From the NCBI RefSeq assembly GCF_045037415.1, contig NZ_CP173438.1: a stretch of 64,000 nt of DNA. One strand, 5' to 3'. Positions within the stretch are counted from its first letter, which is position 1. The number at the start of each line of letters is the position of its first letter. Of the stretch, positions 19,284-19,370 are shown piece by piece. The position numbers are program-made. The DNA comes from Escherichia coli. GTDB lineage: Bacteria; Pseudomonadota; Gammaproteobacteria; Enterobacterales; Enterobacteriaceae.

Positions 19284-19370
19284 TAATCCCTTCGGAGTTT
19301 TAGTCACCAGGCGGGCGCTTCCAGTAAGCAGCCCGCTTTGGGCTACTTAAATTGAACGCCTAAAAGATAA

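What the first reader, a model, noticed from the sequence alone, without database searches (positions are those of the whole stretch)
19284..19355. rpsG terminates at TAA giving 156-aa B-type S7; a 22-codon in-frame extension follows, so the strain is not K-12
rpsG ends ...AFAHYRW-TAA at 19284-19286. The next 22 codons in the same frame are open (SLRSFSHQAGASSKQPALGYLN) before TGA at 19353-19355. In E. coli K-12 the corresponding stop is a sense codon and S7 is 179 aa; the 156-aa form is the E. coli B / most-strain form. This is a compact lineage marker, and it also places the fusA ribosome-binding region in a differently translated context.
Basis: partly seen in the sequence, partly recalled or inferred. 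Interest (0 to 1): 0.3.

Follow-up and report, generated by a model that had tools for sequence, protein, structure and literature searches.

The report
Ordinary wild-type S7 stop codon
The ribosomal protein S7 gene here ends at the normal stop codon found in about 94% of E. coli genomes. The longer S7 of common K-12 laboratory strains is a long-known one-base laboratory mutation, so the finding is correct but ordinary.

Summary
rpsG (18816-19286) ends ...AFAHYRW-TAA. Twenty-two in-frame sense codons follow, then TGA at 19353-19355, and fusA starts at 19383.

MG1655 and DH5alpha differ from the window at one base over 161 nt, position 19285 (TAA versus TTA), which gives the 179-aa K-12 S7. rpsG of E. 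coli B REL606 is nucleotide-identical to the window.

Of 5,425 complete E. coli genomes carrying the locus, 5,077 have TAA and 348 have TTA. Every TTA genome sampled is a K-12 laboratory derivative. All 104 other species examined also have a stop codon at this position, so TAA is ancestral.

The polymorphism is already published, so it is not novel.

- TAA alone does not exclude K-12. The K-12 strain NCM3722 carries TAA. The window is non-K-12 on other evidence: it is 100% identical to ST131 genomes and 98.3% identical to NCM3722.
- The open 22-codon frame is not latent coding sequence. About 32% of shuffles do as well, and the frame is broken in many relatives.

The bases in that stretch are conserved because they form a covarying RNA stem-loop (19307-19341) in the rpsG-fusA spacer. 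I found no description of this stem-loop and its function is unknown.

The parts
18345..18719 (+). rpsL (ribosomal protein S12), first gene of the str operon
   Evidence: ORF ends at 18719. The 375-nt annotated length in the MG1655, REL606 and O157 records places the ATG at 18345.
18720..18815 (+). rpsL-rpsG spacer (96 nt), site of the published S7 autoregulatory RNA
   Evidence: Sequence. The role comes from the literature only (PMC3616713; PMC10931766). Rfam gave no hit.
18816..19286 (+). rpsG, 156-aa ribosomal protein S7 (wild-type or 'B-type' allele, equal to WP_001138043.1)
   Evidence: Pfam Ribosomal_S7 covers residues 2-149, E=2e-63. Nucleotide-identical to rpsG of REL606 and O157.
19284..19286 (+). 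rpsG stop codon TAA (context UAAU). Base 19285 is the A/T polymorphism (TTA in MG1655-type K-12).
   Evidence: Allele counts are 5,077 TAA and 348 TTA. Of 104 other species, 103 have TAA and 1 has TAG.
19287..19352 (+). 22 in-frame sense codons (SLRSFSHQAGASSKQPALGYLN). Untranslated spacer here; translated as S7 residues 158-179 only in MG1655-type K-12.
   Evidence: The frame is not conserved among relatives and is no longer than chance gives.
19307..19341 (+). Conserved RNA stem-loop in the rpsG-fusA spacer (14 pairs, two single-base bulges, 5-nt loop)
   Evidence: Folds. RNAalifold gives 6 of 8 core pairs with compensatory changes. The helix is 94.8% paired across 64 Enterobacterales, 9 of 14 pairs change on both sides, 0 of 500 shuffles reach this, and slid controls are 26-56% paired.
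19353..19355 (+). TGA, the stop codon used by the 179-aa K-12 S7. Not used here.
   Evidence: MG1655 CDS end.
19368..19370 (+). Second in-frame stop (TAA), which keeps the rpsG frame from running into fusA. Both genes are in the same frame.
19373..19377 (+). fusA Shine-Dalgarno sequence, GAGGA
   Evidence: Sequence. GAGGA is invariant in 64 Enterobacterales.
19383..21497 (+). fusA (elongation factor G, 704 aa)
   Evidence: Annotation of matching records.

Best explanation
The window carries the ancestral, wild-type end of rpsG. Translation of S7 stops at UAA (19284-19286) after residue 156. The 96 nt that follow are untranslated intercistronic RNA of the str operon (rpsL-rpsG-fusA-tufA).

The 179-aa S7 of the common K-12 laboratory strains comes from one A-to-T change in that stop codon (TAA to TTA, Leu). 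That change lets ribosomes read 22 more spacer codons to a UGA 27 nt before fusA. It arose within the K-12 pedigree, on the EMG2/W1485/MG1655/W3110 branch. Its absence here says only that the window is not from that branch.

The spacer bases are conserved because they form an RNA stem-loop (19307-19341), not because they encode anything.

Shown: the sequence, the single-base difference, the allele distribution, the ancestral state, and the covariation of the stem-loop. Inferred: that the stem-loop has a function in fusA expression or mRNA stability.
For: - Searches give the anatomy.
- one difference from MG1655 and DH5alpha in 161 nt.
- 470 of 471 rpsG bases equal MG1655; 471 of 471 equal REL606 and O157. 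Predicted masses without the initiator Met are 17,473 Da here and 19,888 Da for K-12.
- allele-specific 55-mers find TAA in 5,077 genomes and TTA in 348. The sum is 5,425, which is every genome that has the locus.
- all 60 evenly sampled TTA genomes look like K-12 laboratory strains by name, size or coordinates.
- three TTA genomes with odd labels (coffee plant, chicken, essential oils) are 100% identical to MG1655 over 3.4 kb, where the window differs at 20 bases.
- 103 of 104 other species have TAA after ...HYRW and 1 has TAG.
- K-12 strain NCM3722 has TAA and differs from MG1655 by only this base in 4 kb.
- Literature: PMC9997739 lists the rpsG C-terminal extension among the mutations shared by EMG2, MG1655 and W3110, and cites Schaub & Hayes 2011 on SsrA tagging of the extended S7.
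- the PDB holds both the 179/178-aa form (351 entries) and the 156-aa form of E. coli S7.
- the Pfam S7 domain ends at residue 149 in both forms.
Against: Nothing found argues against the allele assignment. Three limits apply:
- K-12 identity of the 348 TTA genomes was checked on a sample (60 by label, 4 by sequence), not on all of them.
- I could not read the primary papers on S7 of strains K and B. PMC3031961 and PMC30405 are not held. What I say about their content rests on citing papers and my own knowledge.
- No function for the stem-loop is demonstrated.
Confidence: 0.97

Rival explanations
1. One reading: TAA at this codon by itself shows that the strain is not K-12, so the site is a compact K-12 versus non-K-12 marker.
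For: All sampled TTA genomes are K-12 derivatives. MG1655 and DH5alpha have TTA.
Against: NCM3722 is a K-12 strain and has TAA and the 156-aa S7. Its rpsG-to-fusA-start sequence is identical to the window. PMC9997739 places the mutation on the EMG2/MG1655/W3110 branch only. The marker therefore works one way: TTA implies K-12, but TAA does not imply non-K-12.
Confidence: 0.05
2. The 22 downstream codons are a latent or conditionally used coding extension of S7 in wild-type strains, for example through programmed stop-codon readthrough.
For: The translated spacer looks conserved among close Enterobacteriaceae (SLRS.SHQAGAS.K.PALGYL).
Against: - Of the 105 non-K-12 loci tallied (104 species plus REL606), 18 have a second stop immediately after the first, and 46 have fewer than 22 open codons.
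- Spacer length is not a multiple of 3 in 38 of these loci.
- Stops occur inside the hairpin loop in several genera.
- Variation concentrates in the loop, and changes in the stem are compensatory, which is the pattern of an RNA structure.
- From my own knowledge, UAA followed by U is the most efficient termination context described for E. coli.
- 32% of shuffles have an equally long open frame.
Confidence: 0.02
3. On the side finding: the conserved stem-loop (19307-19341) is a transcription attenuator or partial intrinsic terminator that sets the fusA-tufA level relative to rpsL-rpsG.
For: It has a GC-rich stem that is conserved and covaries. Hairpins of unrelated sequence sit at the same place in Photorhabdus, Pasteurellaceae and Pseudoalteromonas, with z-scores of -3.2 to -5.5. 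A candidate attenuator between rpsG and fusA was predicted in streptococci (PMC2965389).
Against: Only UUU follows the stem. The terminator scan does not call it. There is no Rfam hit. In K-12 the hairpin lies inside a translated region, yet fusA is expressed normally.
Confidence: 0.15
4. On the side finding: the stem-loop shortens the 96-nt spacer so that the segment just after the rpsG stop (CUUCG, 19290-19294) can pair with the fusA Shine-Dalgarno sequence (CGAGG, 19372-19376). Terminating ribosomes would open this pairing and couple fusA translation to rpsG translation.
For: - The pairing appears in the MFE and centroid folds of the window. Its probability is 0.84 in the window and at least 0.5 in 36 of 64 species.
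- These pairs are 94% standard across the alignment.
- A published review states that fusA translation is coupled to rpsG (PMC10931766).
Against: - No pair changes on both sides, and the Shine-Dalgarno sequence is invariant.
- Shuffling the pyrimidine-rich 20 nt after the stop still gives a mean probability of 0.60 in the window, and 6 of 30 shuffles reach the observed value.
- The median across species is 0.56 against 0.43 for shuffles, and only 5 of 64 sequences beat nearly all of their shuffles.
Confidence: 0.2

Closest known systems
rpsG of E. coli B REL606 and of most E. coli (protein WP_001138043.1, 156 aa)
   Same: All 471 nucleotides of rpsG are identical, with the same TAA stop and the same spacer. 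The same protein accession is annotated in O157:H7 and in NCM3722.
   Different: Nothing at this locus. The surrounding genome is not strain B: identity is 97.8% over 35.8 kb.
rpsG of E. coli K-12 MG1655 (b3341, NP_417800.1, 179 aa), the published K-12 C-terminal extension allele
   Same: 470 of 471 bases of the shared coding region and all 96 spacer bases.
   Different: In K-12, codon 157 is TTA (Leu), S7 carries 23 extra residues, and translation stops at UGA 27 nt before fusA. According to PMC9997739 and its reference to Schaub & Hayes 2011, this UGA stop together with the K-12 RF2 variant leads to SsrA tagging of S7. None of this applies to the window.
S7-binding translational operator of the str operon (rpsL-rpsG spacer)
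   Same: Same operon. Also a structured 96-nt intercistronic RNA linked to translational coupling (PMC3616713; PMC10931766).
   Different: It lies upstream of rpsG (18720-18815), not in the rpsG-fusA spacer. The hairpin at 19307-19341 is a separate element for which I found no description.

Membership tests
Wild-type ('B-type') 156-aa S7 allele of E. coli rpsG | Stop codon directly after the codon for Trp156 (...AFAHYRW-stop) | tested here: met
   TAA at 19284-19286.
Wild-type ('B-type') 156-aa S7 allele of E. coli rpsG | Sequence identity with rpsG of E. coli B | tested here: met
   0 differences in 471 nt against REL606. REL606 CDS is annotated as 471 nt, WP_001138043.1.
Wild-type ('B-type') 156-aa S7 allele of E. 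coli rpsG | S7 protein of about 17.5 kDa actually produced | not testable with these tools
   Predicted average mass is 17,473 Da without the initiator Met. Confirmation needs intact-mass proteomics of the source strain.
K-12 (EMG2/W1485/MG1655/W3110) extended 179-aa S7 allele | Sense codon TTA at codon 157, with the reading frame continuing to TGA | tested here: not met
   The window has A at 19285 where MG1655 and DH5alpha have T.
E. coli K-12 genetic background | Near-identity of the flanking chromosome to K-12 genomes | tested here: not met
   98.3% identity (832 mismatches) against K-12 NCM3722 over 50 kb. 99.4% against MG1655 over the 4-kb str region. 100% against ST131 genomes over 25 kb.
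Ribosomal protein uS7 (Pfam PF00177) | Full-length match to the family profile above the curated cut-off | tested here: met
   212.8 bits against a cut-off of 24; residues 2-149 match profile positions 1-148 of 148.
Programmed stop-codon readthrough or recoding site | Downstream reading frame conserved in relatives | tested here: not met
   Across the 105 non-K-12 loci tallied (104 species plus REL606): tandem stops in 18, fewer than 22 open codons in 46, and spacer length not a multiple of 3 in 38.
Intrinsic (Rho-independent) terminator, considered for the hairpin at 19307-19341 | GC-rich stem-loop | tested here: met
   Stem of 14 pairs, including the core GCGGGC/GCCCGC.
Intrinsic (Rho-independent) terminator, considered for the hairpin at 19307-19341 | Run of U immediately after the stem | tested here: not met
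   Only UUU, then GGG. The terminator scan does not report it.
Any curated Rfam family, for the rpsG-fusA spacer | Covariance-model match | tested here: not met
   No relevant match at E<=1 in 17900-19700. The only hit is a spurious miRNA match inside fusA.

The most novel reading that the evidence does not exclude
It could be an undescribed cis-acting RNA element of the str operon that controls fusA expression, either through rpsG-to-fusA translational coupling or through mRNA processing and stability. In that case MG1655-type K-12, which translates straight through it, would be a natural mutant for this element.
Probability: 0.25. Interest if true: 0.35.

Novelty: already known. Interest (0 to 1): 0.1.

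Why it matters
For the finding itself, very little. It confirms that the window carries the normal S7 gene and that the widely used K-12 reference is the odd one out.

There are three practical points:
- Anyone using MG1655 as the reference should expect rpsG to look 'truncated' in natural isolates.
- RefSeq's automatic annotation flags the essential rpsG as a pseudogene in K-12 derivatives. This was seen in 4 of 4 records checked.
- TTA is a clean positive marker for MG1655-type laboratory K-12 in collections, including genomes labelled as environmental isolates. TAA is not a negative marker for K-12.

The conserved hairpin in the rpsG-fusA spacer is a modest lead on how EF-G synthesis is tied to S7 synthesis.

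Tried and rejected
- **Rfam scan.** An E-value scan of 17900-19700 found nothing relevant.
- **Promoter and terminator scan.** The scan of 18600-19600 did not call the hairpin and found no promoter.
- **Literature on the rpsG-fusA hairpin.** No paper contained 'rpsG-fusA'. Two E. coli RNA-processing papers do not mention rpsG or fusA. A Term-seq-type paper and an attenuator survey discuss only the rpsL leader, or streptococci.
- **Primary papers.** Schaub & Hayes 2011 (PMC3031961) and Robert & Brakier-Gingras 2001 (PMC30405) are not held. A search for MRE600 with rpsG found nothing.
- **Outer helix.** An outer helix extending the hairpin (19296-19304 with 19345-19353) is only 67.7% paired across species. 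I dropped it.
- **Long-range pairing.** Pairing of the post-stop CUUCG with the fusA Shine-Dalgarno sequence is plausible but not better than composition-matched shuffles in most species. I left it as inconclusive.
- **Chance or error readings.** I rejected the idea that the open frame is statistically unusual. I also rejected a sequencing error at 19285, because 5,077 genomes share the base.
- **Wasted look-up.** The first coordinate guess for NCM3722 was wrong because that assembly starts at a different origin. The second guess succeeded.

Full report
**Observation**

rpsG occupies 18816-19286 on the + strand and encodes 156 aa ending AFAHYRW, with TAA at 19284-19286. The next 22 codons in frame read SLRSFSHQAGASSKQPALGYLN, TGA lies at 19353-19355, and fusA starts at 19383. 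The protein is a full-length uS7: Pfam PF00177 matches residues 2-149 at 212.8 bits.

The length of the open frame is not remarkable. Of 20,000 shuffles of the 96-nt spacer, 32% have at least 22 open codons, and the +1 frame is open for 20 codons.

**Comparison with K-12 and B**

The window is E. coli. A 301-nt query around the site matches 5,425 of 5,426 complete genomes at 99% identity or better.

Over 161 nt, MG1655 and DH5alpha differ from the window only at 19285, where the window has TAA and K-12 has TTA. MG1655 rpsG is annotated as 540 nt, which is 179 aa. REL606 (E. coli B) rpsG is 471 nt and nucleotide-identical to the window, as is an O157:H7 rpsG. Predicted masses without the initiator Met are 17,473 Da and 19,888 Da.

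**Population frequency**

I used two 55-mers centred on the polymorphic base. Megablast needs an exact 28-mer, so each query finds only its own allele. TAA was found in 5,077 genomes and TTA in 348. Together these account for all 5,425 genomes with the locus, so there is no third allele.

All 60 TTA genomes sampled evenly down the ranking are K-12 laboratory strains or derivatives by name, size or coordinates. They include MG1655, BW25113, DH5alpha, DH1, HB101, MC4100, TG1, AB1157 and J53 transconjugants. Three TTA genomes with unexpected source labels (coffee plant, chicken, essential oils) are 100% identical to MG1655 over 3.4 kb, where the window differs at 20 bases.

**Ancestral state**

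A pattern scan of one genome per species returned the rpsG-fusA junction of 104 species, mostly Enterobacterales and Pasteurellaceae. After ...HYRW, 103 have TAA and one has TAG. TAA is ancestral and TTA is derived.

**Correction to the lineage inference**

NCM3722 is a genuine K-12 strain. Its rpsG is annotated as 471 nt with the 156-aa protein WP_001138043.1. Its sequence from rpsG to the fusA start is identical to the window. It differs from MG1655 over the 4-kb str region by exactly one base, which is this one.

This agrees with Browning et al. 2023 (PMC9997739). That paper lists the rpsG extension among the changes shared by EMG2, MG1655 and W3110, and places WG1, NCM3722 and LS5218 on a separate K-12 branch. 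TTA therefore implies MG1655-type K-12, but TAA does not exclude K-12.

The window is nonetheless not K-12. It is 98.3% identical to NCM3722 over 50 kb (832 mismatches) and 99.4% identical to MG1655 in the str region. Its first 25 kb are 100% identical to O25b:H4-ST131 genomes. It is not strain B either, at 97.8% over 35.8 kb.

**What the '22-codon extension' really is**

Across the 105 non-K-12 loci tallied (104 species plus REL606), the downstream frame is not conserved:
- 18 have a second stop immediately after the first.
- 46 have fewer than 22 open codons.
- Spacer length is not a multiple of three in 38.
- Several genera have stops inside the region.

The apparent conservation of the conceptual peptide in close relatives reflects an RNA structure. 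In an alignment of 64 Enterobacterales spacers, RNAalifold finds a core helix in which 6 of 8 pairs show compensatory changes. The full 14-pair helix at window 19307-19341 is 94.8% paired, and 9 of its pairs change on both sides. No shuffle out of 500 reaches this, and slid controls are only 26-56% paired.

Photorhabdus, Pasteurellaceae and Pseudoalteromonas have hairpins of unrelated sequence at the same position, with z-scores of -3.2 to -5.5.

The hairpin is not terminator-like, because only UUU follows the stem. It has no Rfam family, and I found no description of it in the searchable literature. The published S7 operator lies upstream, in the rpsL-rpsG spacer.

**Mechanism**

Shown by sequence: here ribosomes release S7 at UAA, 96 nt before the fusA AUG, and the hairpin stays untranslated. 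In MG1655-type K-12 they translate through the hairpin and stop at UGA, 27 nt before the AUG.

From the literature: fusA translation is coupled to rpsG translation (PMC10931766). The K-12 UGA stop, together with the K-12 RF2 variant, leads to SsrA tagging of S7 (PMC9997739 citing Schaub & Hayes 2011).

Inferred: the hairpin may compact the spacer. I tested one concrete version, in which CUUCG (19290-19294) pairs with the fusA Shine-Dalgarno sequence CGAGG (19372-19376). The pairing is predicted with probability 0.84 in the window. However, composition-matched shuffles average 0.60, the median across species is 0.56 against 0.43 for shuffles, and no compensatory change exists. This is inconclusive.

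**Verdict**

The polymorphism is long known, and both protein forms are in hundreds of PDB entries. Interest is low. The only lead worth keeping is the conserved rpsG-fusA stem-loop.

Noticed in passing
window 19307-19341: A covarying RNA stem-loop sits in the rpsG-fusA spacer. It is conserved across 64 Enterobacterales (94.8% paired, 9 of 14 pairs with compensatory changes). Photorhabdus, Pasteurellaceae and Pseudoalteromonas have hairpins of different sequence at the same position. It has no Rfam family, is not terminator-like, and I found no description of it.
   Followed up: partly
L110 39951-40421 (NZ_CP011495.1, K-12 strain NCM3722): The K-12 pedigree is polymorphic at this site. NCM3722 has TAA and the 156-aa S7, and differs from MG1655 by exactly this one base over the 4-kb str region.
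   Followed up: yes
L001 867-1334; L111, L112 and L113 1559-2026: In RefSeq (PGAP) records of K-12 derivatives, the essential rpsG is flagged as a pseudogene ('incomplete; missing C-terminus') and cut just before the TTA codon. This was seen in 4 of 4 non-reference K-12 records examined.
   Followed up: partly
L111 (ecMN1F, 'Coffea arabica'), L112 (THN257, 'chicken'), L113 (CAR, 'essential oils isolation'): These genomes are deposited with environmental or animal source labels. They carry the TTA allele and are 100% identical to MG1655 over 3.4 kb, so they are K-12 laboratory strains or derivatives.
   Followed up: partly
window 1-25000: The first 25 kb are 100% identical to several O25b:H4-ST131 genomes, for example strains 5506, 81009, H105 and Z247. 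The window therefore comes from an ST131-like (phylogroup B2) strain.
   Followed up: no
window 18816 and 19383; L042, L082, L086: rpsG and fusA are in the same reading frame because the spacer is 96 nt. In E. coli two in-frame stops (19353, 19368) separate them. In Salmonella enterica subsp. arizonae (L042), Kosakonia oryzendophytica (L082) and L086 there is no in-frame stop between the rpsG stop and fusA, so a single readthrough event would fuse S7 to EF-G.
   Followed up: no
window 19290-19294 with 19372-19376: The pyrimidine-rich CUUCG just after the rpsG stop can pair with the fusA Shine-Dalgarno sequence CGAGG. The predicted probability is 0.84 in the window, but this is not clearly better than shuffles and there is no covariation.
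   Followed up: yes
L050 (CABDVE010000001.1, labelled Pseudomonas stutzeri NCTC11607): Its rpsG-fusA spacer is of the Pasteurellaceae type and is nearly identical to those of Haemophilus and Rodentibacter. This suggests a mislabelled or contaminated record.
   Followed up: no
E. coli genome search results: One record classed as a plasmid carries the rpsG-fusA junction. One of the 5,426 genomes has no match to it at all.
   Followed up: no
window 19347-20933 (-) and 18873-19307 (-): Long antisense ORFs of 528 and 144 aa lie opposite fusA and rpsG. I regard them as the usual shadow ORFs of strongly codon-biased genes, not as genes.
   Followed up: no
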